The translations under genes were made by a program, and so were the position numbers. DNA of 62,716 nt, filler included, from Stramenopiles sp. TOSAG23-6 (Eukaryota), in assembly GCA_900128565.1 (NCBI GenBank). It is 27 parts of 27 records of this genome, joined end to end, with 100 filler letters (N's around TTAATTAATTAA, not from the genome) between each part and the next. Parts side by side here need not be neighbours in the genome. Positions count along the whole stretch, not along the records: positions 23,369 to 25,599 come from LT638196.1; 26 more parts are not named here. One strand, given 5' to 3'. Positions 1,612 to 27,929 of the stretch are shown piece by piece. The notes beneath the pieces were generated by a model. The model did no database searches. It was not told the origin of the DNA and worked only from the letters and a program-made list of their open reading frames with translations. Within the stretch, counting starts at the first letter, position 1. Each line of letters begins with the position of its first letter.

Positions 1612-2192
1612 TTAAGTTTTCATTATCTTCCGTCATAGCTAAAATTTGATTAAACCGACGCTCCCAATCTTGCGAATCTTTTTTCTCTTTTATCAATAGA
1701 TTTTCAATCATTGTGAAAAAATATTTCCAAAAAAAAAAAACTAAAATTTGTTAGGTACAAAATTTCGTACGAAAAAAAAATAAATTCGAAATTGAAATGA
1801 AAACGTACAACCCTATCTAATTCAGTCCGTAGCGTGTCAATCATTTTTGTATTTTCTATGTGTAAGATATTTTTGTGCTTATTCATTTGTTTAATCTCAC
1901 TTTCAAGAGTCATTATTTTCATCTCTTGTTCCATTTCTTTCTGTTTTGCTTCTACGTTTTTTTCTCTCTCCTCAAGAAATGATCTGTGAAAAAATATGTC
2001 AAATTTGAAATTTGTTAGTTTTTATGAATAGTTTTTTTTTTTATGAATAGTACAATTTTTTTTTTCTGTTTTTTTTTTTAACAAAAATAACAAAAAAAAA
2101 CACAATGCATTTGAAATTCTTATGAAAATGTACTCGTTTTTTTCAATTTTGGCACTTCATTTTGTAAAGATTTTAATAATCGAATATCAGAT
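1612..2192 (-). CDS. Multi-exon coiled-coil protein, 3' part
   Basis: E/K/Q-rich exons (MEQEMKIMTLESEIKQMNK...) separated by minus-strand family introns; ends approximate. Confidence 0.45.
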
Positions 2193-2244
2193 GTATTTTG
2201 GAAAAATATTTCAAAAAAAATCGTTAGGTACAAAATTTCGTACG

Positions 2245-2344
2245 NNNNNNNNNNNNNNNNNNNNNNNNNNNNNNNNNNNNNNNNNNNNTTAATTAATTAA
2301 NNNNNNNNNNNNNNNNNNNNNNNNNNNNNNNNNNNNNNNNNNNN
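2245..2344. other. Artificial contig spacer (N-run + TTAATTAATTAA + N-run, 100 nt); 26 such spacers in the window
   Basis: Identical stop-in-all-frames linker every ~2.3 kb; flanking contig lengths decrease monotonically (2244, 2243, 2239 ... 2206). Confidence 0.98.
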
Positions 2345-2580
2345 CTTATTGAATTAATATCAGAATTTAATATATCTTTTTCATCACTTATTGAATTAAT
2401 ATCAGAATTTAATATATCTTTTTCATCACTTATTGAATTAATATCAGAATTTAATATATCTTCTTCATCACTTATTGAATTAATATCAGAATTTAATATA
2501 TCTTTCATTTTCATATCCTCTTCATCACTTATTAAATTAATATCAGAATTTAATATATCTTTCATTTTCATATCTTTTTC
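2345..2580 (-). repeat. Coding 42-bp tandem repeat (ISDEKDILNSDINS)n
   Basis: Repeated CTTATTGAATTAATATCAGAATTTAATATATCTTTTTCATCA units. Confidence 0.9.
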
Positions 2581-4480
2581 ATCAATGATTTCAAGAGATT
2601 TCTGATCAATTTTATCAAATATATCATCATCCAATATATTATCACCATCATCATCATCAATCATACTACTAACAGCTCTTTCACTTGAGATTGTTTCAGG
2701 CTCAGATATAATAGATTCTTTTTCAATTTCATTAATGATCATCGTAGATTTCGTGTCGAGACTAAAACGAACGCCTTCTTTTCCTGTAGATGTAGTATTG
2801 ATATCGTTACATAAATTGATTGTATTCACTTCAATATTTGAAATAATATTATTTTGTGACTCTGCAGAATCCGAATTATGTTTCTGTTGTTTTGATACAA
2901 TCGAATTTGAAATAGCATTATTTTGTGACTCTGTAGAATCCGAATTATGTTTCTGTTGTTTTGATACAATCGAATTTGGTGTTTCAGGTGTCTTCATTAA
3001 TACACATTCTGATAACCATCCATGTATTTTGGAAAAAGTATTTCAAAAAAAAAAACTTAAATTTGTTAGGTACAAAATTTTTATAAAAAAATAGATTCGA
3101 TTTTTTTGTTAAAAAAATAAATAAAACATACATTGCATTGAGATGCTGCATTTAATACATGACGCCAAGGTTTACTTTTCCCTAATAAACTCTTATTTCC
3201 AACTATAATTAGGTGTCGTTTGGCCCTGGTAATTGCAACATTCATACGAGATGGCGAATCAATAAACCCAATGGAAGAGGATCGTACATGTAATTTGAAA
3301 AAATATTTCAAAAAAAAATTTTGAAAATTTGTTAGGTACAAAATTTTTATAAAAAAAAATTTAAATTTTTTTGTAAAAAAAAAAAAACACATACAGTACT
3401 AACTATAATTACTTCTTTTTCAGCTCCTTGAAATGTATTTTGGAAAAATATTTCAAAATTTTTTTTACCAAAAAAAAAAAATTTGTTAGGTACAAAATTT
3501 CGTATAAAAAAAATAAATTCGATTTTTTTTTTACCGGAAAAAAAAAAAAATAAAACATACATGCATCTACAGTTGACACATCGACATCAATCGCTTCACT
3601 ATTAGAAATATATGATAACAGAGTAGAAACAAGGCAAACTTGAGCTTTATATAAACAAATTACACCAATATTTTTTGCATGAACTCCAGAGGATAAAATC
3701 CAAGTGACCATTCGTTTCACTGTCTTAGCTTCAGCTCTATTACTAATACTATGATAGTTATCATATTGTTCACTAGCATCAAGTATTTTGGAAAAATATT
3801 TCAAAATTTACCAAAAAAAAAAAATTCGTTAGGTACAAAATTTTTATAAAAAAAAAATTCGATTTTTTTGTAAAAAAAAAAAAAATAAAAAAACATACAA
3901 CATGAAAGAAAGAAATAGGTGGCCAAGGAAGGACATGATGTCTATCTTGCAGTGTTATACCATCTTTTAATGTTCCATTGTAAAAAAGTTTATTTGAGAT
4001 AGCCGATATTTTGGGATGGCAACGATATTGGATATTTAATACTATAGGTTTAAATCCAGTGATTGCAAGACGTTCAAACATAGTTCGCTCAAGTAATTTA
4101 TTATTGCCACTTGGTACATTCGAAATTGAATTACTTTTTTTTGTACCAAATTTCGTACCTAAAGAATTTTGAATGGGTAGAGCGTCACCTTTTTTATTAT
4201 TTGGACGTTGAGCAAGTACTGGGGGAAGTTGTTTAGGGTCTCCGACAGCAACTAAACATTTGGCATATTTTGTGAATCATATTTTTTTGTTTTTTTTTTC
4301 ATTGAGAAAAAACATCGTTACGTACAAAATTTCGTACCAAAAAAAAAAAAAAAATGAACTTTATGATGAAAACGTACATGAAAACGAGAAATTGGAAGTA
4401 AAGCACATGGTTCTATCATTTGGGAGCACTCGTCTAATAAAATAATATCAAATGTTTGATTCTCGAGACATTGATGTTCG
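2345..4480 (-). CDS. ZGRF1: UPF1-like SF1 helicase, ZGRF1-like (partial, multi-exon)
   Basis: Spliced motifs VGDPKQLPP, LERTMFERL, QYRCHPKISAISNKLFYNG, IGVICLYKAQ, VSTVDAFQGAEKE, GFIDSPSRMNVAITRAKRHLIIVG. Confidence 0.8.
3288..3394 (-). other. GT-AT intron (VST|VRS)
   Basis: ACT|GTATGT...AATTACAT|GTA CGA restores IIVSTVRSSSIGF. Confidence 0.85.
3433..3560 (-). other. GT-AT intron splitting the helicase motif VDA-F-QG
   Basis: GCA T|GTATGT...AAAATACAT|TT CAA GGA; using the next AG deletes FQ and creates TGA. Confidence 0.9.
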
Positions 4481-4687
4481 CATGTATTGTGAAACAAAAA
4501 AACAAAAAATCAAAAAAAATCATTAGGTACAAAATTTCGTATGAAAAAACAATTTGAAATTGAAAAAAATCATTAGGTACAACATTTNNNNNNNNNNNNN
4601 NNNNNNNNNNNNNNNNNNNNNNNNNNNNNNNTTAATTAATTAANNNNNNNNNNNNNNNNNNNNNNNNNNNNNNNNNNNNNNNNNNNN

Positions 4688-9262: not shown

Positions 9263-9438
9263 NNNNNNNNNNNNNNNNNNNNNNNNNNNNNNNNNNNNNN
9301 NNNNNNTTAATTAATTAANNNNNNNNNNNNNNNNNNNNNNNNNNNNNNNNNNNNNNNNNNNNTTGTTAGGTACGGAATTTTTTTACGAAAAAAAAACAAA
9401 CAAAAAAAAATTAAATTAGACATTCATATACAACGTAC

Positions 9439-10443
9439 ATTTCCTCCCATGGAATGGCCAATAAAATGAAGTGGTTTTGTTTCACACCATCCCGGATAAT
9501 CACCGACTTCAATAGAACCAAATCGACTATGTTTGCATCGTTTGGATTTCTCCTCTCCATAATCTACTTGACCTCCTTTGAGTTGATAAAAAAGTTCACA
9601 CGCTCGATCATGATCAGATGACAACGGACCCAAACGTGATACAAAAACTCGCCGATCTAATAATTCTGCACCTGCCCAATAACTCGGCATCCATTGAGAA
9701 TGTCCACGACCCCAACCACAAATACCATGAACAAGAACAAAGGGACAATTATTTTCATTGGCCACGAAATCCGCGACATTTGCAAGACGTTCTTGGGAAA
9801 ATGAACTTTGCATGGTTTGTATTCGAATATTTGGATCTATTGCTGGCGTTGTCACAGCAGGACTAGAATGTACATTACTCGGTGGAGTATTCTGGGCATT
9901 CAATACCTGACCTGCAGCAACATCCCCTTGTAGAGTTGTGCCAGACGTTGCTAGGCTATGAACATTTCGTATACCTGATATTGTTGCTGCAATGGTAGCC
10001 TGTGTTGCAGTGGCAGCGACAGTAAATGGTACAAAAATATCGGTAGGCTGAGGACGGCGAAGTTTTAGAAAGGCCTTTTCTGTTAGGACAATGAGCCAAA
10101 TTGAAAGAGTTCTTAAAGACATCCAGCAAAAAGTAAAATGAAAAGCGATGCTTTCATGCAACAGAGGCCAAACAATATTTCGAAAAGGCCATAACCAGAT
10201 ACGAAAGCACAAAAAGTCGATACAAAACAGTATCTGTCGAGTAAAGAACCAAATGATGCGAAGCAAAATCCTCAAACTTGTTCCCTGTGTCAGCTCCCAT
10301 AATTCGCCATAAGGGTCGAGATTTAGTTTAGGGAAACGTTCACCACTCCTACTACTGCATTCATCTTGCTCTGGTTGTGAGTTTTTATCAAAAGATACAC
10401 GTCTCCTTCTCTTGACATCGTGCGCTGCATTTTTTNAANACAT
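9439..10443 (-). CDS. Triacylglycerol lipase (alpha/beta hydrolase), first exon
   Basis: FVLVHGICGWG, GPLSSDHDRACELFYQLKGGQVDYG, LHFIGHSMGG; ends at a GTACGT family donor. Confidence 0.88.
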
Positions 10444-10744
10444 CTCAAANAANTTNATCAAATTTTGGGTATGGTCTATACTGGCAAAGATAACGCAGAA
10501 TCTATGGTTGTTATCCAATTCCAATGATCTCTCTCAAGTCTTGTTGCCAAGGTTATAGAACCTTGTTGTTGCCTTCCAAAGGACCATTTGCGGTTTTTTT
10601 GACCAGTCAAAAAACACGAAATACGTACTTATATAATTGTGATCGTTGTTTTTTCTTCGTTTGACTTGACACATGCACAGTGGAGAGACGAATTCGGAAT
10701 TCCTCCTCCTGTGTAGATCCGAGAGTAAGGTAGTACGTAACAAC

Positions 10745-11597
10745 ATGACTGAGAATGATTCAGCAACTGTGCTTCCCAAATTGAGTGTTACACTCATTAC
10801 AGGATTTCTGGGATCTGGAAAGACCACGCTTCTTAATCGTATTCTTTCGGAAAATCATGGTAAAAAGTTTGCTGTGGTTGAAAACGAATTTGGCGAAGTT
10901 GGTATTGATGATGTTCTCGTAAAGCAAAAAATTCAACTTGAAGGGACTGATGAAAACAACATTTGTATGGAAATGAATAATGGCTGTATATGCTGTACAG
11001 TACGTGCGGATATGGCAAAGACATTAAATTCTTTGCTTGACCTGCATCGAAGTGGAAAAACATTGGACGGAATCATCATCGAGACAACAGGTATGGCTGA
11101 CCCTGGTCCAGTTGTCCAAACGCTTTTTGTCGATGAAGGTATCAGTGATGGAATATACTTAGATGGTGTATTAACTGTAGTCGATGTCAAACATATAAAA
11201 AAACATCTTGATGAAAAGACTGGTGGTGAGGCAGTGAACCAGGTGGCATATGCTGATCGACTTCTATTGAACAAAATCGACCTTGTGACAAAAGAAGAAG
11301 CCGATAGCGTCGAGGACCGAATCACCAAAATTAATGGTACAGCTCGTGTCATTCGTTGTACGCATGCGAAGGTAGATATGGATGTGTTGTTGGGAATTCG
11401 AGCTTTTGAATTAAATCGTATCACCTCGATGGACCCAGCCTTCTTAAATGTCGATGATCACGATGAAACTTGCACTGAGGAAGACTGTGACCATGATCAC
11501 CATGACCATAATCATACACACGGTCATAAGCATGATCATAAGCATGAAAAAGATGGTCACGATCATAAACATGAAAAAGATGGTCACGATCATAAAC
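10745..11597 (+). CDS. COG0523/CobW (ZNG1-like) zinc-chaperone GTPase with His-rich region, partial
   Basis: ITGFLGSGKTT, VVENEFGEVGID, GCICCTVR, IETTGMADP, LLNKIDL, His-rich tract. Confidence 0.95.
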
Positions 11598-11773
11598 NNN
11601 NNNNNNNNNNNNNNNNNNNNNNNNNNNNNNNNNNNNNNNNNTTAATTAATTAANNNNNNNNNNNNNNNNNNNNNNNNNNNNNNNNNNNNNNNNNNNNTTG
11701 TTAGGTACGGAATTTTTTTACGAAAAAAAAACAAACAAAAAAAAATTAAATTAGACATTCATATACAACGTAC

Positions 11774-12778
11774 ATTTCCTCCCATGGAATGGCCAATAAA
11801 ATGAAGTGGTTTTGTTTCACACCATCCCGGATAATCACCGACTTCAATAGAACCAAATCGACTATGTTTGCATCGTTTGGATTTCTCCTCTCCATAATCT
11901 ACTTGACCTCCTTTGAGTTGATAAAAAAGTTCACACGCTCGATCATGATCAGATGACAACGGACCCAAACGTGATACAAAAACTCGCCGATCTAATAATT
12001 CTGCACCTGCCCAATAACTCGGCATCCATTGAGAATGTCCACGACCCCAACCACAAATACCATGAACAAGAACAAAGGGACAATTATTTTCATTGGCCAC
12101 GAAATCCGCGACATTTGCAAGACGTTCTTGGGAAAATGAACTTTGCATGGTTTGTATTCGAATATTTGGATCTATTGCTGGCGTTGTCACAGCAGGACTA
12201 GAATGTACATTACTCGGTGGAGTATTCTGGGCATTCAATACCTGACCTGCAGCAACATCCCCTTGTAGAGTTGTGCCAGACGTTGCTAGGCTATGAACAT
12301 TTCGTATACCTGATATTGTTGCTGCAATGGTAGCCTGTGTTGCAGTGGCAGCGACAGTAAATGGTACAAAAATATCGGTAGGCTGAGGACGGCGAAGTTT
12401 TAGAAAGGCCTTTTCTGTTAGGACAATGAGCCAAATTGAAAGAGTTCTTAAAGACATCCAGCAAAAAGTAAAATGAAAAGCGATGCTTTCATGCAACAGA
12501 GGCCAAACAATATTTCGAAAAGGCCATAACCAGATACGAAAGCACAAAAAGTCGATACAAAACAGTATCTGTCGAGTAAAGAACCAAATGATGCGAAGCA
12601 AAATCCTCAAACTTGTTCCCTGTGTCAGCTCCCATAATTCGCCATAAGGGTCGAGATTTAGTTTAGGGAAACGTTCACCACTCCTACTACTGCATTCATC
12701 TTGCTCTGGTTGTGAGTTTTTATCAAAAGATACACGTCTCCTTCTCTTGACATCGTGCGCTGCATTTTTTNAANACAT
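11774..12778 (-). CDS. Lipase, redundant copy 2
   Basis: Identical to 9439-10443. Confidence 0.85.
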
Positions 12779-13079
12779 CTCAAANAANTTNATCAAATTT
12801 TGGGTATGGTCTATACTGGCAAAGATAACGCAGAATCTATGGTTGTTATCCAATTCCAATGATCTCTCTCAAGTCTTGTTGCCAAGGTTATAGAACCTTG
12901 TTGTTGCCTTCCAAAGGACCATTTGCGGTTTTTTTGACCAGTCAAAAAACACGAAATACGTACTTATATAATTGTGATCGTTGTTTTTTCTTCGTTTGAC
13001 TTGACACATGCACAGTGGAGAGACGAATTCGGAATTCCTCCTCCTGTGTAGATCCGAGAGTAAGGTAGTACGTAACAAC

Positions 13080-13932
13080 ATGACTGAGAATGATTCAGCA
13101 ACTGTGCTTCCCAAATTGAGTGTTACACTCATTACAGGATTTCTGGGATCTGGAAAGACCACGCTTCTTAATCGTATTCTTTCGGAAAATCATGGTAAAA
13201 AGTTTGCTGTGGTTGAAAACGAATTTGGCGAAGTTGGTATTGATGATGTTCTCGTAAAGCAAAAAATTCAACTTGAAGGGACTGATGAAAACAACATTTG
13301 TATGGAAATGAATAATGGCTGTATATGCTGTACAGTACGTGCGGATATGGCAAAGACATTAAATTCTTTGCTTGACCTGCATCGAAGTGGAAAAACATTG
13401 GACGGAATCATCATCGAGACAACAGGTATGGCTGACCCTGGTCCAGTTGTCCAAACGCTTTTTGTCGATGAAGGTATCAGTGATGGAATATACTTAGATG
13501 GTGTATTAACTGTAGTCGATGTCAAACATATAAAAAAACATCTTGATGAAAAGACTGGTGGTGAGGCAGTGAACCAGGTGGCATATGCTGATCGACTTCT
13601 ATTGAACAAAATCGACCTTGTGACAAAAGAAGAAGCCGATAGCGTCGAGGACCGAATCACCAAAATTAATGGTACAGCTCGTGTCATTCGTTGTACGCAT
13701 GCGAAGGTAGATATGGATGTGTTGTTGGGAATTCGAGCTTTTGAATTAAATCGTATCACCTCGATGGACCCAGCCTTCTTAAATGTCGATGATCACGATG
13801 AAACTTGCACTGAGGAAGACTGTGACCATGATCACCATGACCATAATCATACACACGGTCATAAGCATGATCATAAGCATGAAAAAGATGGTCACGATCA
13901 TAAACATGAAAAAGATGGTCACGATCATAAAC
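13080..13932 (+). CDS. CobW/COG0523 GTPase, redundant copy 2
   Basis: Identical to 10745-11597. Confidence 0.9.
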
Positions 13933-14108
13933 NNNNNNNNNNNNNNNNNNNNNNNNNNNNNNNNNNNNNNNNNNNNTTAATTAATTAANNNNNNNNNNNN
14001 NNNNNNNNNNNNNNNNNNNNNNNNNNNNNNNNTTGTTAGGTACGGAATTTTTTTACGAAAAAAAAACAAACAAAAAAAAATTAAATTAGACATTCATATA
14101 CAACGTAC

Positions 14109-15113
14109 ATTTCCTCCCATGGAATGGCCAATAAAATGAAGTGGTTTTGTTTCACACCATCCCGGATAATCACCGACTTCAATAGAACCAAATCGACTAT
14201 GTTTGCATCGTTTGGATTTCTCCTCTCCATAATCTACTTGACCTCCTTTGAGTTGATAAAAAAGTTCACACGCTCGATCATGATCAGATGACAACGGACC
14301 CAAACGTGATACAAAAACTCGCCGATCTAATAATTCTGCACCTGCCCAATAACTCGGCATCCATTGAGAATGTCCACGACCCCAACCACAAATACCATGA
14401 ACAAGAACAAAGGGACAATTATTTTCATTGGCCACGAAATCCGCGACATTTGCAAGACGTTCTTGGGAAAATGAACTTTGCATGGTTTGTATTCGAATAT
14501 TTGGATCTATTGCTGGCGTTGTCACAGCAGGACTAGAATGTACATTACTCGGTGGAGTATTCTGGGCATTCAATACCTGACCTGCAGCAACATCCCCTTG
14601 TAGAGTTGTGCCAGACGTTGCTAGGCTATGAACATTTCGTATACCTGATATTGTTGCTGCAATGGTAGCCTGTGTTGCAGTGGCAGCGACAGTAAATGGT
14701 ACAAAAATATCGGTAGGCTGAGGACGGCGAAGTTTTAGAAAGGCCTTTTCTGTTAGGACAATGAGCCAAATTGAAAGAGTTCTTAAAGACATCCAGCAAA
14801 AAGTAAAATGAAAAGCGATGCTTTCATGCAACAGAGGCCAAACAATATTTCGAAAAGGCCATAACCAGATACGAAAGCACAAAAAGTCGATACAAAACAG
14901 TATCTGTCGAGTAAAGAACCAAATGATGCGAAGCAAAATCCTCAAACTTGTTCCCTGTGTCAGCTCCCATAATTCGCCATAAGGGTCGAGATTTAGTTTA
15001 GGGAAACGTTCACCACTCCTACTACTGCATTCATCTTGCTCTGGTTGTGAGTTTTTATCAAAAGATACACGTCTCCTTCTCTTGACATCGTGCGCTGCAT
15101 TTTTTNAANACAT
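14109..15113 (-). CDS. Lipase, redundant copy 3
   Basis: Identical to 9439-10443. Confidence 0.85.
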
Positions 15114-15414
15114 CTCAAANAANTTAATCAAATTTTGGGTATGGTCTATACTGGCAAAGATAACGCAGAATCTATGGTTGTTATCCAATTCCAATGATCT
15201 CTCTCAAGTCTTGTTGCCAAGGTTATAGAACCTTGTTGTTGCCTTCCAAAGGACCATTTGCGGTTTTTTTGACCAGTCAAAAAACACGAAATACGTACTT
15301 ATATAATTGTGATCGTTGTTTTTTCTTCGTTTGACTTGACACATGCACAGTGGAGAGACGAATTCGGAATTCCTCCTCCTGTGTAGATCCGAGAGTAAGG
15401 TAGTACGTAACAAC

Positions 15415-16267
15415 ATGACTGAGAATGATTCAGCAACTGTGCTTCCCAAATTGAGTGTTACACTCATTACAGGATTTCTGGGATCTGGAAAGACCACGCT
15501 TCTTAATCGTATTCTTTCGGAAAATCATGGTAAAAAGTTTGCTGTGGTTGAAAACGAATTTGGCGAAGTTGGTATTGATGATGTTCTCGTAAAGCAAAAA
15601 ATTCAACTTGAAGGGACTGATGAAAACAACATTTGTATGGAAATGAATAATGGCTGTATATGCTGTACAGTACGTGCGGATATGGCAAAGACATTAAATT
15701 CTTTGCTTGACCTGCATCGAAGTGGAAAAACATTGGACGGAATCATCATCGAGACAACAGGTATGGCTGACCCTGGTCCAGTTGTCCAAACGCTTTTTGT
15801 CGATGAAGGTATCAGTGATGGAATATACTTAGATGGTGTATTAACTGTAGTCGATGTCAAACATATAAAAAAACATCTTGATGAAAAGACTGGTGGTGAG
15901 GCAGTGAACCAGGTGGCATATGCTGATCGACTTCTATTGAACAAAATCGACCTTGTGACAAAAGAAGAAGCCGATAGCGTCGAGGACCGAATCACCAAAA
16001 TTAATGGTACAGCTCGTGTCATTCGTTGTACGCATGCGAAGGTAGATATGGATGTGTTGTTGGGAATTCGAGCTTTTGAATTAAATCGTATCACCTCGAT
16101 GGACCCAGCCTTCTTAAATGTCGATGATCACGATGAAACTTGCACTGAGGAAGACTGTGACCATGATCACCATGACCATAATCATACACACGGTCATAAG
16201 CATGATCATAAGCATGAAAAAGATGGTCACGATCATAAACATGAAAAAGATGGTCACGATCATAAAC
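15415..16267 (+). CDS. CobW/COG0523 GTPase, redundant copy 3
   Basis: Identical to 10745-11597. Confidence 0.9.
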
Positions 16268-16443
16268 NNNNNNNNNNNNNNNNNNNNNNNNNNNNNNNNN
16301 NNNNNNNNNNNTTAATTAATTAANNNNNNNNNNNNNNNNNNNNNNNNNNNNNNNNNNNNNNNNNNNNTTGTTAGGTACGGAATTTTTTTACGAAAAAAAA
16401 ACAAACAAAAAAAAATTAAATTAGACATTCATATACAACGTAC

Positions 16444-17448
16444 ATTTCCTCCCATGGAATGGCCAATAAAATGAAGTGGTTTTGTTTCACACCATCCCGG
16501 ATAATCACCGACTTCAATAGAACCAAATCGACTATGTTTGCATCGTTTGGATTTCTCCTCTCCATAATCTACTTGACCTCCTTTGAGTTGATAAAAAAGT
16601 TCACACGCTCGATCATGATCAGATGACAACGGACCCAAACGTGATACAAAAACTCGCCGATCTAATAATTCTGCACCTGCCCAATAACTCGGCATCCATT
16701 GAGAATGTCCACGACCCCAACCACAAATACCATGAACAAGAACAAAGGGACAATTATTTTCATTGGCCACGAAATCCGCGACATTTGCAAGACGTTCTTG
16801 GGAAAATGAACTTTGCATGGTTTGTATTCGAATATTTGGATCTATTGCTGGCGTTGTCACAGCAGGACTAGAATGTACATTACTCGGTGGAGTATTCTGG
16901 GCATTCAATACCTGACCTGCAGCAACATCCCCTTGTAGAGTTGTGCCAGACGTTGCTAGGCTATGAACATTTCGTATACCTGATATTGTTGCTGCAATGG
17001 TAGCCTGTGTTGCAGTGGCAGCGACAGTAAATGGTACAAAAATATCGGTAGGCTGAGGACGGCGAAGTTTTAGAAAGGCCTTTTCTGTTAGGACAATGAG
17101 CCAAATTGAAAGAGTTCTTAAAGACATCCAGCAAAAAGTAAAATGAAAAGCGATGCTTTCATGCAACAGAGGCCAAACAATATTTCGAAAAGGCCATAAC
17201 CAGATACGAAAGCACAAAAAGTCGATACAAAACAGTATCTGTCGAGTAAAGAACCAAATGATGCGAAGCAAAATCCTCAAACTTGTTCCCTGTGTCAGCT
17301 CCCATAATTCGCCATAAGGGTCGAGATTTAGTTTAGGGAAACGTTCACCACTCCTACTACTGCATTCATCTTGCTCTGGTTGTGAGTTTTTATCAAAAGA
17401 TACACGTCTCCTTCTCTTGACATCGTGCGCTGCATTTTTTNAANACAT
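16444..17448 (-). CDS. Lipase, redundant copy 4
   Basis: Identical to 9439-10443. Confidence 0.85.
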
Positions 17449-17749
17449 CTCAAANAANTTAATCAAATTTTGGGTATGGTCTATACTGGCAAAGATAACG
17501 CAGAATCTATGGTTGTTATCCAATTCCAATGATCTCTCTCAAGTCTTGTTGCCAAGGTTATAGAACCTTGTTGTTGCCTTCCAAAGGACCATTTGCGGTT
17601 TTTTTGACCAGTCAAAAAACACGAAATACGTACTTATATAATTGTGATCGTTGTTTTTTCTTCGTTTGACTTGACACATGCACAGTGGAGAGACGAATTC
17701 GGAATTCCTCCTCCTGTGTAGATCCGAGAGTAAGGTAGTACGTAACAAC

Positions 17750-18602
17750 ATGACTGAGAATGATTCAGCAACTGTGCTTCCCAAATTGAGTGTTACACTC
17801 ATTACAGGATTTCTGGGATCTGGAAAGACCACGCTTCTTAATCGTATTCTTTCGGAAAATCATGGTAAAAAGTTTGCTGTGGTTGAAAACGAATTTGGCG
17901 AAGTTGGTATTGATGATGTTCTCGTAAAGCAAAAAATTCAACTTGAAGGGACTGATGAAAACAACATTTGTATGGAAATGAATAATGGCTGTATATGCTG
18001 TACAGTACGTGCGGATATGGCAAAGACATTAAATTCTTTGCTTGACCTGCATCGAAGTGGAAAAACATTGGACGGAATCATCATCGAGACAACAGGTATG
18101 GCTGACCCTGGTCCAGTTGTCCAAACGCTTTTTGTCGATGAAGGTATCAGTGATGGAATATACTTAGATGGTGTATTAACTGTAGTCGATGTCAAACATA
18201 TAAAAAAACATCTTGATGAAAAGACTGGTGGTGAGGCAGTGAACCAGGTGGCATATGCTGATCGACTTCTATTGAACAAAATCGACCTTGTGACAAAAGA
18301 AGAAGCCGATAGCGTCGAGGACCGAATCACCAAAATTAATGGTACAGCTCGTGTCATTCGTTGTACGCATGCGAAGGTAGATATGGATGTGTTGTTGGGA
18401 ATTCGAGCTTTTGAATTAAATCGTATCACCTCGATGGACCCAGCCTTCTTAAATGTCGATGATCACGATGAAACTTGCACTGAGGAAGACTGTGACCATG
18501 ATCACCATGACCATAATCATACACACGGTCATAAGCATGATCATAAGCATGAAAAAGATGGTCACGATCATAAACATGAAAAAGATGGTCACGATCATAA
18601 AC
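17750..18602 (+). CDS. CobW/COG0523 GTPase, redundant copy 4
   Basis: Identical to 10745-11597. Confidence 0.9.
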
Positions 18603-19673: not shown

Positions 19674-19943
19674 AAAAATATACGACTTTTCAACATAATT
19701 TAAATAAAGGAATTTCTTTTGACAGGATGGTGACTTTCAATTAAATCAATGTTACTACAATATTTTGGTTTATACATATTCATTGTAATCATATTCATTT
19801 TTTTTTCTTTTTATATTTTTACTAATAATTTTTTTAAAAGTTAACGGTTGCAAACGGTCACACAATTTTTTGGGTAATATCTTGGCTTGTTACACGTGAC
19901 CTGCGTAATGGAATAGCCCCGCCTGACTATTACTTGATTAAAT

Positions 19944-20546
19944 ATGTCATCATGTCCTAATTCAAAATGTAAATGTGAGAAGTGTACGTGTGGAGATGCA
20001 TGTACGTGCGGAATATCAATGGAAGTTGTATGTGATCCATGTATAGCTTTCAAGAAATCCCTGACTAATTCATCAACAAAGTCTAATGGTCTGACGACTC
20101 AAGAAATCCCCACTTTGTTACATCGCGTCTTGCTTGCCATAGATGAAGGCAATTCTGTAGATTTCGCGCAATGTTTCGCAAAAAATGGAATATGCGATGT
20201 GCTTCTCATAGGATCTCGAACTACGGGCTCTAAAGCTTTAGAAATTCTTGGTAGTAAGTTATCCTCCAGGTTCAAAGGAATGAGACACTGGGAAGGAAAC
20301 GTGTGTGTTCAAATGCATACAACAGATAAAGGTGATCAGCATTTTATTAATCGTTCATATTGGAAAGCACTTTCAGGAAATACAATTGTGTCGACTGGAA
20401 TACATGTCGATCGCTTGGTAAAAGACAATACAGGAAATTTTGTCATAGCTCACAGAGTGATTGGACACACGTATTCAAACTGCAAGGTCGTTGATCCTGG
20501 CTCCATGTCAACTATGTTGAGTACTGTTATGTCCACAGCTTTGTAA
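19944..20546 (+). CDS. SnoaL/NTF2-like protein with N-terminal metallothionein-like Cys-rich segment
   Basis: MSSCPNSKCKCEKCTCGDACTCG..CDPC followed by LLAIDEG..FAQCFAKNG..MRHWEGN..GIHVDRLVK..FVIAHR; intronless. Confidence 0.75.
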   Translation: MSSCPNSKCKCEKCTCGDACTCGISMEVVCDPCIAFKKSLTNSSTKSNGLTTQEIPTLLHRVLLAIDEGNSVDFAQCFAKNGICDVLLIGSRTTGSKALEILGSKLSSRFKGMRHWEGNVCVQMHTTDKGDQHFINRSYWKALSGNTIVSTGIHVDRLVKDNTGNFVIAHRVIGHTYSNCKVVDPGSMSTMLSTVMSTAL

Positions 20547-23983: not shown

Positions 23984-25518
23984 ATGCCAAAGAGAAAACA
24001 CCCTTCTAATGAAAAAGACACAGAAACAAAAACACCGGCAGAGTTTTTTGCCGAGAATCAGCAAATTGCTGGATTTGACAATGATGGAAAAAGTATGTAT
24101 ACGACACTTCGAGAGCTTATTGAAAATGCACTCGACGCGAGTGAATCCATTTCTCAGTTACCACAGATACAAATTTCAATTCAAGAAATTGAAGCGAGTA
24201 GTCTTAGTCTACTTCATGGTTTAGAGCCTCATCTTCGTGGTGATAAAACGTTGTATGAAGATACAAGAAAAAATCAAAAGAAAAAAAGAAAGAAAAATAT
24301 CGTGTCAAGTAGTAAGTCTTCACAGAAATTGGGACAACAACAACAACAACAAGGAAAAGTTAAAACGCTGGGCGCAAATTTATACAAGATTACAGTGTGT
24401 GATAATGGATGCGGCATGCAACACGAAAAAATACCAAATTTACTTGGGCGTGTGTTGAGTGGTTCAAAATATGGTGTACGACAAACACGTGGTAAATTTG
24501 GTTTAGGTGCAAAAATGGCACTAATTTGGAGCATGAAGAGTACAGGCTTACCTATCACTGTATTTTCTGCTCAATGTAAAGGTGAAAAAAACAATACGCC
24601 TGATTTTGTATCATTTGTAAAATTAGAAATTGATTTACAGAAAAATTGTCCAATTATTCATAATCATGATAAGTTGTCATTTCCATTGCCTTCCAATATT
24701 TGTGTTGGTAGCAATAATGTACCTTCAAAGCCGATATTTTTAAACGGTAGAGGAACAGAAATTACTATGATTATTCGAGGAAATTGGCGAACGTATCAAG
24801 GACGTATTAAATCGTACTTGCAACAATTGGCAGTGATTACACCTTATGCTGATATTAGTTTACGATATATTTCAAATAAAAAATCTTCTGGAGGTATAAA
24901 AAATCTAGTCATGGGTAAAGGAATTACTACTATAGTAAATACTACTAAACACACGAATGTAAAAGGTGAAGTTCCTAATACAGAAAACACTGCAGCTAAA
25001 CCGAATCTAGCTGTAAAAAGTAAAGTACATAGTGATGTAAATAGTAAAGTAAGCAACCTCCCTACAATTCCTTTACAGTTAACATTCAAACGTATGTTTT
25101 ATTTTTTTTAATTTTGATTTTTTTTTCGTACGAAATTTTGTACCTAACGAATTTTTTTTGAAATATTTTTCCAAAATACATGACGGTCTAAAAGAATGCC
25201 TTTACCACCAAGAGATTCATTACCCCATCCTTCTGCAATTGACAATATTTCTCTCAAACATTTATTGAGGGAATGTTCTTCGTCAATGACATTAGAAACA
25301 ATATTTTCTACAAAGCTTTGTTGTATATCAAAACAATTAGCAAATCGAATCACTAATGAATTAGGAGAGAGATTTATAAATATGAAAAAATGTAATGAAA
25401 TGTCATCTGCAGATATTCAATATATTGTTCAACTACTTCACGCCGCAAGGTCAATTCCACAACCAAATCCAGATTGTCTCTCTCCAGCAAATGCATACAA
25501 TTTGAGACTGGGAATCAT
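23984..25518 (+). CDS. TOP6B: DNA topoisomerase VI subunit B (exons 23984-25091, 25182-25518; partial)
   Basis: PAEFFAENQQIAGFDN, RELIENALDA, DNGCGM, GSKYGVRQTRGKFGLGAKMAL, QLAVITPYA, LSPANAYNLRLGI. Confidence 0.95.
25092..25181 (+). other. GT-AT intron (90 nt)
   Basis: TTC AAA C|GTATGT...CCAAAATACAT|GA CGG TCT gives FKRRSKRMP; the AT-AC shift gives TGA and the next AG is out of frame. Confidence 0.9.
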
Positions 25519-25699
25519 GTACGTTTTATTTTTTTTTTAATTTTGAATTTATTTTTTTATAAAAATTTTGTACCTAACGATTTTTTTTTAAATATTTTTN
25601 NNNNNNNNNNNNNNNNNNNNNNNNNNNNNNNNNNNNNNNNNNNTTAATTAATTAANNNNNNNNNNNNNNNNNNNNNNNNNNNNNNNNNNNNNNNNNNNN

Positions 25700-27929
25700 T
25701 TTTTTTTTTTTTTTTGAAACTAAAAAAAAAAATTTTGAAATATTTTTCCAAAATACATACGTCGTGTTGAAGACTGGATATGAATCGACGTTGGAGATTG
25801 TTAAATGTCCTCTCGATGGAACATGCCTTGGTGGTGGAAAAAATAATACATCTTGGAATAATTGTGCTACTGGACGGAAAGGCATTTTGTGTGTATTGTG
25901 TGATGATACAAAAGGATATTATGTATGTTTTATTTTTTTTTTTTTTCTTTACCAAAAAAAAAAAAAATCGAATTTTTTTTTTTTATAAAAATTTTGTACC
26001 TAACAAATTTTTTAGAATTTTTTTTTGAAATATTTTCCAAAATACATAAATCTGGTATGAAATGTGAACAGAGAGATTGTGCGGAAACTTCTCCTGCTGC
26101 TGGTATTTTATTAATATTATTTTTGTTATTATTGTGGTGTATGTTATCGTGCTATTGTATGTCAAAACCAGCTCCACAATGGACAGATGCGGATGATCTT
26201 GCTGCAATGGAAGATGATGAAAAAAGTAGATCTTTGGGATATCTGGAACATGCAGGAGGAGCCTTAATGGAACAATCTGCATATGCTGAGTCTACACTTC
26301 AAAGCGATGGAAATAGTGCAGCAGTTGTGCGTAAAGCTACACTTGATGCCGTATCATCTGTGAAGAGCACGGCAAAGAGTGCAGCTGCACAAGCCAAAGA
26401 GTCCAAAGACGCTTTAAAGAAGTTATTATCAAATCAATGGCTTATTGCCTTGACGGATATCCGTAGTATATTGAAGCTTTTAGTATCTTATTTTCAAATT
26501 CTAACTCAACTTGATGTCACAGTAAATGCGCCATTTCCGTTGAAATTTAAAAACTTTTATCGCGGATTTAGTGCAATTAATATCGATTTGACGGGTATTA
26601 TTGGACCAGTTGATTTGTGTAATTTAAGTACAAGTTTTTCGAATGGTTTTTATATTCATCTTTGTATTTTGCCAATACTATCGATTCTTGTGTTTATCAT
26701 CTGGCTGTTATTAGGGTATACATGTATGTTTTTTTTTTTTNTCACCAAAATTTTTTTTTTTTTTTTATTTCAAATTTTTTTAAAATTTTAAAAAAATTTT
26801 TTTTTTTTTAAAAATTTTTAAAAAAAAAAAAATTTTTTTAAAATTTTAAAAAAATTTGAAATAAAAAAAAAAAAAAAATTTTGGTGAAAAAAAAAAAAAA
26901 CATACATGTATACCCTAATAACAGCCAGATGATAAACACAAGAATCGATAGTATTGGCAAAATACAAAGATGAATATAAAAACCATTCGAAAAACTTGTA
27001 CTTAAATTACACAAATCAACTGGTCCAATAATACCCGTCAAATCGATATTAATTGCACTAAATCCGCGATAAAAGTTTTTAAATTTCAACGGAAATGGCG
27101 CATTTACTGTGACATCAAGTTGAGTTAGAATTTGAAAATAAGATACTAAAAGCTTCAATATACTACGGATATCCGTCAAGGCAATAAGCCATTGATTTGA
27201 TAATAACTTCTTTAAAGCGTCTTTGGACTCTTTGGCTTGTGCAGCTGCACTCTTTGCCGTGCTCTTCACAGATGATACGGCATCAAGTGTAGCTTTACGC
27301 ACAACTGCTGCACTATTTCCATCGCTTTGAAGTGTAGACTCAGCATATGCAGATTGTTCCATTAAGGCTCCTCCTGCATGTTCCAGATATCCCAAAGATC
27401 TACTTTTTTCATCATCTTCCATTGCAGCAAGATCATCCGCATCTGTCCATTGTGGAGCTGGTTTTGACATACAATAGCACGATAACATACACCACAATAA
27501 TAACAAAAATAATATTAATAAAATACCAGCAGCAGGAGAAGTTTCCGCACAATCTCTCTGTTCACATTTCATACCAGATTTATGTATTTTGGAAAATATT
27601 TCAAAAAAAAATTCTAAAAAATTTGTTAGGTACAAAATTTTTATAAAAAAAAAAAATTCGATTTTTTTTTTTTTTGGTAAAGAAAAAAAAAAAAAATAAA
27701 ACATACATAATATCCTTTTGTATCATCACACAATACACACAAAATGCCTTTCCGTCCAGTAGCACAATTATTCCAAGATGTATTATTTTTTCCACCACCA
27801 AGGCATGTTCCATCGAGAGGACATTTAACAATCTCCAACGTCGATTCATATCCAGTCTTCAACACGACGTATGTATTTTGGAAAAATATTTCAAAATTTT
27901 TTTTTTTAGTTTCAAAAAAAAAAAAAAAA
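25700..27929. repeat. Whole-contig inverted duplication (palindrome centred near 26815), likely amplification/assembly chimera
   Basis: The right half is the reverse complement of the left half, with mirrored ORFs. Confidence 0.9.
25759..26723 (+). CDS. Cys-rich multi-pass membrane protein fragment
   Basis: CATGRKGILCVLC, hydrophobic segments, LKLLVSYFQI; family intron near 25923-26047. Confidence 0.65.

What the first reader, a model, noticed from the sequence alone, without database searches (positions are those of the whole stretch)
25092..25181. Cleanest proof case: TOP6B intron can only be GT-AT
There is almost no junction ambiguity here. The AT-AC register creates TGA and the next AG is out of frame. 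Only C|GTATGT...TACAT|GA (or its 1-nt TA-TG shift) restores TFKRRSKRMPLPP..HPSAID, which matches plant-type TOP6B as I recall it. This excludes a U12 AT-AC reading.
Basis: partly seen in the sequence, partly recalled or inferred. Interest (0 to 1): 0.8.

Follow-up and report, generated by a model that had tools for sequence, protein, structure and literature searches.

The report
GT-AT introns with rewired U1 RNA
This intron is one of thousands of copies of a small mobile intron in a marine protist that end in AT instead of the near-universal AG, and the only U1 splicing RNA gene found in the organism has three changes that make it fit exactly these introns' starts, which suggests the splicing machine was re-tuned to an invading element.

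Summary
The 90-nt intron at 25092-25181 is real, and GT-AT is its most likely form. Other evidence fixes the register.
(1) It belongs to a genome-wide family: 3,432 matches end AATACAT, 144 end AATACAG.
(2) New here: the only U1 snRNA found begins AAACGUACAUG. All three changes from the Rfam consensus complement the family donor CAU|GUAYGUUU. U2, U5, U6 and Prp8 cores are ordinary; U12 and U6atac were not found.
(3) One RNA contig joins a GT..AT intron of another gene with no slide possible.
Flanks co-vary like a 2-bp target duplication, so an introner probably took AT as its acceptor. A minority of canonical GT-AG introns coexists, so a second, unassembled U1 is possible. This scan noted the GT-AT family many times on other pieces of this genome; my look-ups found no note on its U1.

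The parts
23984..25091 (+). TOP6B exon 1 (GHKL ATPase motifs intact)
   Evidence: Open frame; HATPase_c; TOP6B homologues E 5e-72; motifs ELIENALDA, DNGCG, GKFGLG
25092..25181 (+). 90-nt GT-AT intron, a young copy of the genome-wide family
   Evidence: nearest copy 98% identical over 89 nt
25089..25099 (+). 5' splice site AAC|GTATGTTT; +1 to +8 pair without a break to the variant U1 (one G-U)
   Evidence: 9 of 11 positions, -7.2 kcal/mol; alternative donor 25096 gives 7 of 11, -3.6
25128..25143 (.). Internal palindrome conserved in the family, just upstream of and overlapping the branch motif
   Evidence: 11-nt arms, 91%; the whole intron has no unusual fold, z 0.06
25140..25148 (+). Branch-point motif GTACCTAAC; putative branch A at 25147 (inferred from the CTAAC core)
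   Evidence: branch A not shown by lariat data
25173..25181 (+). 3' end AAAATAC|AT: element end ATAC plus the acceptor dinucleotide AT
25182..25518 (+). TOP6B exon 2
   Evidence: Aligns to homologues through CLSPANAYNLRLGI
25519..25599 (+). Second family intron of TOP6B, cut by the contig end; its donor CAT|GTACGTTT is the exact complement of U1 nt 1-11
   Evidence: 11 of 11 Watson-Crick pairs, -12.8 kcal/mol

Best explanation
The intron is cut GT(25092) to AT(25181) by the major (U2-type) spliceosome. It is one copy of a ~90-100-nt non-autonomous element, GTAY...ATAC, that carries its own donor and branch point. The element inserted thousands of times, mostly at (C)AT(G), duplicating two bases; the downstream copy of those two bases serves as acceptor. 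The host U1 snRNA 5' end changed at three positions (U2>A, U5>G, C9>A) and now pairs fully with CAU|GUAYGUUU. The acceptor is probably set by distance from the strong branch motif (34-46 nt in 80% of copies) and docks with A(-2) kept and U in place of G at -1. AG is still accepted. SHOWN: family, end counts, flank co-variation, U1 gene sequence and complementarity, one unambiguous GT..AT RNA joint in another gene. INFERRED: the TOP6B junction, branch A, expression and use of this U1, DNA transposition, the order of events, and how the acceptor is chosen.
For: Protein: 90-nt removal is best of 426 open registers. Family ends in 120 unbiased copies: AT 105, TT 8, AG 2, AC 2, GT 2, AA 1; assembly-wide 3,432 AATACAT vs 144 AATACAG. 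Frames stay open for 50 codons each side in 80 of 127 copies when cut at the family end, 29 of 127 at the first AG, 9 and 10 of 127 for +1 and -1 controls. U1: Rfam E 1e-11, full length, two identical copies in U5-U2-U1-U4 clusters, on a contig that carries a family intron. It pairs a mean 10.2 of 11 positions against 7.3 for the Rfam consensus, better in 120 of 120, and 5.9 in the AT-start register. Exon -1 is T in 91% and G in 2%; that position was not part of my donor filter. RNA: joint 5024-5119 on L103 skips 94 nt GT..AT with no slide possible, and the same run joins a GT..AG intron of that gene. A 14-nt loose end matches exon 2 of a family GT-AT intron. Duplication: exon end TT goes with intron end TT in 6 of 12 vs 2 of 129 (p 2e-6), AC with AC in 5 of 16 vs 3 of 125 (p 5e-4).
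Against: No RNA covers the TOP6B junction. The unambiguous RNA joint is one contig at depth 2.7 in a metatranscriptome laid at 90% likeness, flagged 'between: not known', in an intron that is not a recognisable family copy. The family read has only 14-16 nt on its short side. U1 scores under Rfam's gathering cut-off (54.1 vs 69.5) and its expression is untested. The donor filter was built on the family consensus, so the fit at +1 to +7 is partly selected. Canonical AG|GTAAGT..AG introns exist in the same organism (HSP60, FKBP). At TOP6B the flanks are AC/AT, not a duplication; only 14 of 53 copies with a non-AT exon end repeat it, and 36 end in AT anyway. No autonomous element with these ends was found. 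Yeast uses a UAU acceptor poorly (PMC12707134, section 6), and Prp8 shows no change that would explain tolerance.
Confidence: 0.78

Rival explanations
1. Two-U1 system: the variant U1 serves only the invading GT-AT class, and an ordinary U1, missing from this incomplete assembly, serves the older GT-AG introns. The TOP6B intron is still GT-AT.
For: Canonical CAG|GTAAGT donors persist, also on contigs and in a gene with family introns. Both snRNA-cluster contigs begin at the same base, as a collapsed array would. U1C and U2AF35 were also not found, so the assembly has gaps (38/40, 74/77, 123/126). Physarum has both standard and modified U1 (bioRxiv 2022.06.08.495308, section 22).
Against: Rfam and DNA searches find only the variant, twice. 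The canonical 5' 12-mer is no commoner than its control (58 vs 68); 23 of the 58 sites scanned by Rfam and 50 of 58 screened by motif gave no U1. Canonical donors are not enriched (230 vs control 572) and can still form about 7-9 pairs with the variant (counted by hand).
Confidence: 0.3
2. The family spreads through RNA (reverse splicing) into CAT|G sites chosen by the rewired spliceosome. AT is the element's own end, and the flank repeat is a preferred context, not a transposase footprint.
For: Inverted ends are only 4-8 bp. AC/AT, TC/AT and GC/AT copies are common. At TOP6B the exon cannot have been AT without a stop. No transposase with matching ends was found. Family-like sequence is abundant in three of four RNA runs.
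Against: TT/TT, AC/AC, GT/GT and AA/AA pairs (14 copies) need a locus-specific copy of the target. They are commoner among young copies (10 of 22) than old (4 of 31), p 0.012.
Confidence: 0.2
3. This particular intron is cut in another register (AT-GA, TG-AC, or GT25096-AG25194).
For: AT-GA and TG-AC give the identical protein; the GT-AG form is in frame.
Against: U1 pairs in register only at 25092. Donor 25096 lacks +3A and +5G and removes three residues whose spacing is kept in 119 of 120 homologues. RNA joints elsewhere start at GT.
Confidence: 0.08
4. The copy is not efficiently spliced, or TOP6B is a pseudogene; the insertion simply breaks it.
For: No TOP6B RNA tested; many intron-containing contigs in the RNA runs; the gene is cut by the contig end.
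Against: Both exons are open with intact motifs. Thousands of copies sit in conserved genes (MCM, USP, helicases) with frames restored by the cut.
Confidence: 0.05
5. Minor (U12) spliceosome, AT-AC or U12-type GT-AT.
For: The branch motif ACCTAAC resembles the U12 branch motif (recalled). U12-type GT-AT introns exist in mammals (PMC1557818, passages). In AT/AT copies the junction can be read as AT-AC.
Against: The donor is GTAYGT and matches U1 and U6 ACAGA, not the recalled U12 donor. U12 and U6atac were not found (incomplete assembly). Of 5 copies where the registers differ in frame, 4 favour GT and 1 is marginal. The L103 family read excludes a left slide.
Confidence: 0.03

Closest known systems
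Non-canonical introns of Fritillaria borealis and F. pellucida (PMC13326754; abstract, section 21, section 26 part 1 read)
   Same: 3' AT is a major acceptor (34% and 44% there); YAY stands before the donor and at the intron end; transposon origin is discussed; the minor spliceosome is lost.
   Different: Their main classes are AG/AC and AG/AT with many other ends, U1 5' ends are not changed, and U2AF is duplicated. Here donors stay GT, one acceptor (AT) dominates, U1 is changed, and one U2AF65 and no U2AF35 were found.
Co-evolved U1 of Entamoeba and Mastigamoeba (bioRxiv 2022.06.08.495308; abstract, sections 12, 14, 16, 22 read)
   Same: U1 5' end changed to give full pairing with an atypical donor, including an A for +7U.
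   Different: Those changes face intron positions; the sections read report no change facing the exon and no non-AG acceptor. Here C9>A faces the last exon base and coincides with an AT acceptor and an introner burst. The same paper found standard U1 in 69 yeasts and in Mamiellales despite +4Y donors.
Introners that carry the donor and co-opt the acceptor from the target duplication (Chrysochromulina; PMC9860276, passages)
   Same: Repeated short introns, donor carried, acceptor from the duplication, marine protist.
   Different: There the duplication is 4 bp; here it is 2 bp and supplies AT. PMC12130899 (passages) lists only AG and AC as 3' sites in its curation.
Engineered U1 suppressors of 3' splice-site mutations in fission yeast (Reich et al. 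1992, Cell 69:1159; title seen in the references of PMC9508853, content recalled)
   Same: A U1 change complementary to a changed acceptor dinucleotide.
   Different: Laboratory mutants in one species. Here the change is natural, and whether U1 touches the acceptor is untested.
ISL2EU (PHIS) DNA transposons (PMC4482050, passages)
   Same: 2-bp AT target duplication in a palindromic target.
   Different: Their target is A|AT|T; here it is (C)AT(G) and relaxed. The two DDE_Tnp_4 elements found lack the family's ends.

Membership tests
U2-type spliceosomal intron | GT donor that pairs with the organism's U1 and has +5G for U6 ACAGA | tested here: met
U2-type spliceosomal intron | Branch motif with a core that pairs with U2 GUAGUA | tested here: met
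   CTAAC core in the family; U2 canonical; pairing beyond the core is imperfect; branch A not mapped
U2-type spliceosomal intron | Terminal YAG | tested here: not met
   YAT here; 105 of 120 AT, 2 of 120 AG. So it works like a U2 intron but is not a canonical GT-AG one
U2-type spliceosomal intron | Exact removal from mRNA | tested here: inconclusive
   Shown for one GT..AT intron elsewhere and suggested for one family copy; not tested at TOP6B
U2-type spliceosomal intron | Lariat intermediate | not testable with these tools
   Needs lariat reads
U12-type intron | RTATCCTT-type donor (motif recalled) | tested here: not met
   Donor matrix GTAYGTTTT
U12-type intron | Minor snRNAs in the genome | tested here: inconclusive
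   U12 and U6atac not found in an incomplete assembly; U11 and U4atac not searched genome-wide
Introner | Many sequence-similar introns at unrelated sites | tested here: met
Introner (DNA-transposon type, MITE) | Locus-specific target duplication | tested here: met
   Family level: TT/TT p 2e-6, AC/AC p 5e-4. Not met at this copy (AC/AT)
Introner (DNA-transposon type, MITE) | Terminal inverted repeat of 6 nt or more | tested here: inconclusive
   GTAT/ATAC perfect over 4 bp, about 8 bp with a bulge (by eye); one search lists no terminal pair at minimum length 10
Introner (DNA-transposon type, MITE) | Autonomous partner with the same ends | tested here: inconclusive
   Only DDE_Tnp_4 searched; 2 distinct elements, neither with family ends
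U1 snRNA (RF00003), for the gene at G000:C1146:349-508 | Four-way junction, 70K loop, Sm site, stem-loop 4 | tested here: met
   Full-length alignment E 9.9e-12, 54.1 bits, under the gathering score 69.5
U1 snRNA (RF00003), for the gene at G000:C1146:349-508 | Canonical 5' end AUACUUACCUG | tested here: not met
   AAACGUACAUG, three changes
Plant-type TOP6B | GHKL domain followed by the transducer region | tested here: met
   C-terminal part lies beyond the contig end

The most novel reading that the evidence does not exclude
The organism has changed its splicing code at both ends through one base: U1 C9>A reads the exon-end AU and also the intron-end AU, so that U1 rather than U2AF35 (possibly lost) marks the acceptor. 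This would be a natural, genome-wide form of the fission-yeast U1 suppressor, driven by a transposon's target site, and would make YAT the default acceptor.
Probability: 0.2. Interest if true: 0.93.

Novelty: new variant of a known kind. Interest (0 to 1): 0.8.

Why it matters
The terminal AG is explained structurally by pairing with G(+1) and the branch A (bioRxiv 212811, section 4), so a genome with thousands of GT-AT introns and an unchanged Prp8 alpha-finger tests how strict that rule is. A U1 changed opposite the last exon base links an introner burst to a change in core splicing RNA, and makes a long-standing question testable: does the spliceosome adapt to invading introns, or does an altered spliceosome let them in? 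It also means GT-AG gene finders will mis-annotate this lineage.

Tried and rejected
RNA on the TOP6B contig was not obtained; the single read-laying went to G000:C178, a locus chosen for likely high expression. The four runs held only 6-11% of the words of the TOP6B-containing stretch, which shows nothing about TOP6B. Relatives: metagenome scans for the U2-U1 cluster and for the family core gave 0 hits. The 31 viral hits are chance matches without family structure. Prp8 suppressor-type change: 36 of 1,222 near-invariant columns differ, within the range of 47 homologues (0-48; four at 36 or more), and LTNAQRSGL is intact. U2AF35: not found by PF00642 (15 hits of 23 candidates), nor by two recalled-motif patterns (4 and 21 hits, none U2AF35); U1C was not found either, so this is weak. 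Euglenid-type end pairing rejected: fold z 0.06. Helitron-type A^T insertion rejected because of TT/TT, GT/GT and AA/AA pairs. Contamination of the HSP60 contig rejected by codon usage, r 0.989. A first broad acceptor filter mis-called old copies and was replaced; 141 of 332 branch motifs passed the final filter, the rest being cut by contig ends, nested, N-bearing or too diverged. The Prp8 tree (quick method, no true root) did not fix the lineage.

Full report
SETTING. The window is a string of ~2.3-kb contigs from a 21-Mb, 6,236-contig eukaryote assembly. The runs that hold it are seawater metatranscriptomes. Named Prp8 top hits include oomycetes and Tribonema; a quick tree did not fix the lineage. 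A deep-branching stramenopile is my inference only.

THE OBSERVATION. The coordinates and letters are as stated. The unspliced frame stops within the intron. I scored every donor 25070-25124 against every acceptor 25150-25214 that keeps the frame open (426 registers) with an HMM of 120 TOP6B homologues. Removing 90 nt is best (91.8 bits), and 119 of 120 homologues have RR three residues before MP. But four registers tie: GT-AT, TA-TG (same mRNA), AT-GA and TG-AC (different mRNA, same protein). An in-frame GT-AG exists from a weak donor at 25096 (80.4 bits), and the first in-frame AG from 25092 removes 11 residues (76.8 bits). So the protein excludes the left slide and disfavours AG, but does not by itself prove GT-AT.

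THE FAMILY. The intron is one of a large family: T|GTAYGTTTT ... TTGTACCTAAC ... AATACAT|G. Assembly-wide exact patterns give 2,614 copies after AT, 177 after C, 3,432 ending AATACAT and 144 ending AATACAG, each with control 0 (duplicated contigs inflate all counts). Of 332 distinct branch motifs in the DNA I held, 141 gave a clean donor and end; 21 of these had been picked for C at -1 and were left out of frequencies. In the other 120 the last two bases are AT 105, TT 8, AG 2, AC 2, GT 2, AA 1; the end filter did not constrain them. Cutting at the family end keeps 50 codons open on each side in 80 of 127 copies, against 29 at the first AG and 9-10 for one-base controls.

ORIGIN. The two bases before the donor co-vary with the two at the end: TT/TT 6 of 12 (p 2e-6), AC/AC 5 of 16 (p 5e-4), GT/GT 2, AA/AA 1. 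That is the locus-specific match that PMC9860276 (passages) uses to call a target duplication. Among AT/AT copies, -3 is C in 37 of 82 and +1 is G in 42 of 82 (background 16% and 20%), a palindromic CATG target. Against a pure duplication: of 53 copies with a non-AT exon end only 14 repeat it and 36 end in AT, more so among old copies (25 of 31) than young (11 of 22; p 0.035). TOP6B is such a case (AC/AT), and its exon cannot have been AT without a stop. So either AC became AT inside the intron or the element brought AT. No autonomous partner was found in the one transposase family searched.

THE SPLICEOSOME. U5, U2, U1 and U4 lie head to tail in two copies; U6 is separate. U2 GUAGUA, U5 loop 1 and U6 ACAGAGA are standard. 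U1 is full length (E 9.9e-12; 54.1 bits, under the 69.5 cut-off) but begins AAACGUACAUG where the Rfam consensus has AUACUUACCUG. Each change faces a family feature: A2 faces +7U, G5 faces +4C/U, A9 faces exon -1U. The second TOP6B donor pairs 11 of 11. Over 120 copies the variant pairs a mean 10.2 positions against 7.3 for the consensus, and 5.9 in the AT-start register. My donor filter favoured the intron positions, but not -1 to -3, where T is 91% at -1. At 25092 the pairing is 9 of 11 with +1 to +8 unbroken; the competing donor 25096 gives 7 of 11 and half the energy. The cluster contig carries a family intron. No second U1 was found. U12 and U6atac were not found. Prp8's alpha-finger, including the glutamine that reads the -3 base in yeast (PMC12707134, abstract; position matched by recalled numbering), is unchanged. 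U2AF65 is present. U2AF35 and U1C were not found, which an incomplete assembly can explain.

RNA. On G000:C178 one poly(A) contig (depth 2.7, 66 nt on the short side) joins across a 94-nt GT..AT intron of cathepsin L with no slide possible; the same run joins the next, GT..AG, intron. The product reads WTFATTGSIEGA. This intron is not a recognisable family copy, so AT acceptors are not confined to young elements. A second read ends at a family donor and continues with 14 bases of exon 2, which fits GT-AT and excludes a left slide; it is too short to count as a bridge. These are thin data: two records, likeness set at 90%. Three of the four runs also held hundreds of short records matching the family intron; they may be retained introns, excised introns or DNA.

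A SECOND CLASS. HSP60 has three long AG|GTAAGT..AG introns with snoRNA-like content, and its contig has the same codon usage (r 0.989). FKBP and other genes have short canonical introns, some on contigs with family copies. The canonical donor 9-mer is not enriched (230 vs 572), so this class is small. Either the variant U1 serves both or a second U1 is missing.

MECHANISM. Most likely the major spliceosome binds the donor through the re-matched U1, uses the CTAAC branch, and takes the YAT 34-46 nt downstream. A(-2), which pairs with the branch A in the yeast structure (bioRxiv 212811, section 4), is kept in 92% of ends; G(-1), which pairs with G(+1), is replaced by U. How that is tolerated is not explained; yeast uses UAU poorly (PMC12707134, section 6). 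The boldest reading is that U1 A9-U10 also reads the acceptor, as engineered in fission yeast (Reich et al. 1992; title seen, content recalled). Nothing here tests it.

NOVELTY. AT acceptors at scale are known from Fritillaria, with unchanged U1 5' ends (PMC13326754, sections 21 and 26 part 1). Single GT-AT introns are known in mammals (PMC1557818, passages). U1 co-evolution is known from Entamoeba (bioRxiv 2022.06.08.495308). I found no paper on a GT-AT-dominated protist or on a natural U1 change facing the exon end. The library lacks most subscription papers, and I read no supplements; intron tables there could bear on this. Earlier notes of this scan describe the family and the duplication on other pieces of this genome; look-ups for its U1 found none. 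Verdict: a new variant of known kinds, interest 0.8, carried by the U1 match more than by this one junction.

Noticed in passing
L014/L012 9-645 (G000:C1146, C6122): U5, U2, U1 and U4 genes lie head to tail with 2-23 nt spacers, in two copies, as if made as one transcript.
   Followed up: partly
L014/L012 about 650-760: A further conserved segment follows U4, with a hairpin whose loop differs between the copies, an Sm-like site and a B-box-like motif; no credible Rfam match. Possibly an unknown small RNA.
   Followed up: partly
L030 1582-1780 (+): Two family introns back to back with no exon between them; only removal of both keeps the frame. A zero-length exon or recursive splice site.
   Followed up: partly
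L124 about 2000-4510 (-), G000:C437: HSP60 keeps three long canonical introns; one holds a SNORD96-like match (E 1.7e-5) and another a duplicated C/D-box-like unit.
   Followed up: partly
L223 (- strand 2400-2445), G000:C2432: A Harbinger-like element (DDE transposase with a convergent second ORF) has the family's palindrome and branch motif between its two genes, without the family ends.
   Followed up: no
loci and window: 6 of 120 copies start ATAYGT rather than GTAYGT, so AT-AT type introns may also be spliced.
   Followed up: no
window 19938-20546 (+): Intronless gene fusing a metallothionein-like Cys-rich N-terminus to a SnoaL-like domain.
   Followed up: no
window 9363-18602 and 25700-27929: One contig is repeated four times and another is a fold-back of itself; probably amplification or assembly artefacts.
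   Followed up: no
L103 8281-8372: Family-intron sequence draws hundreds of short records in three of four RNA runs, far above the exons.
   Followed up: no
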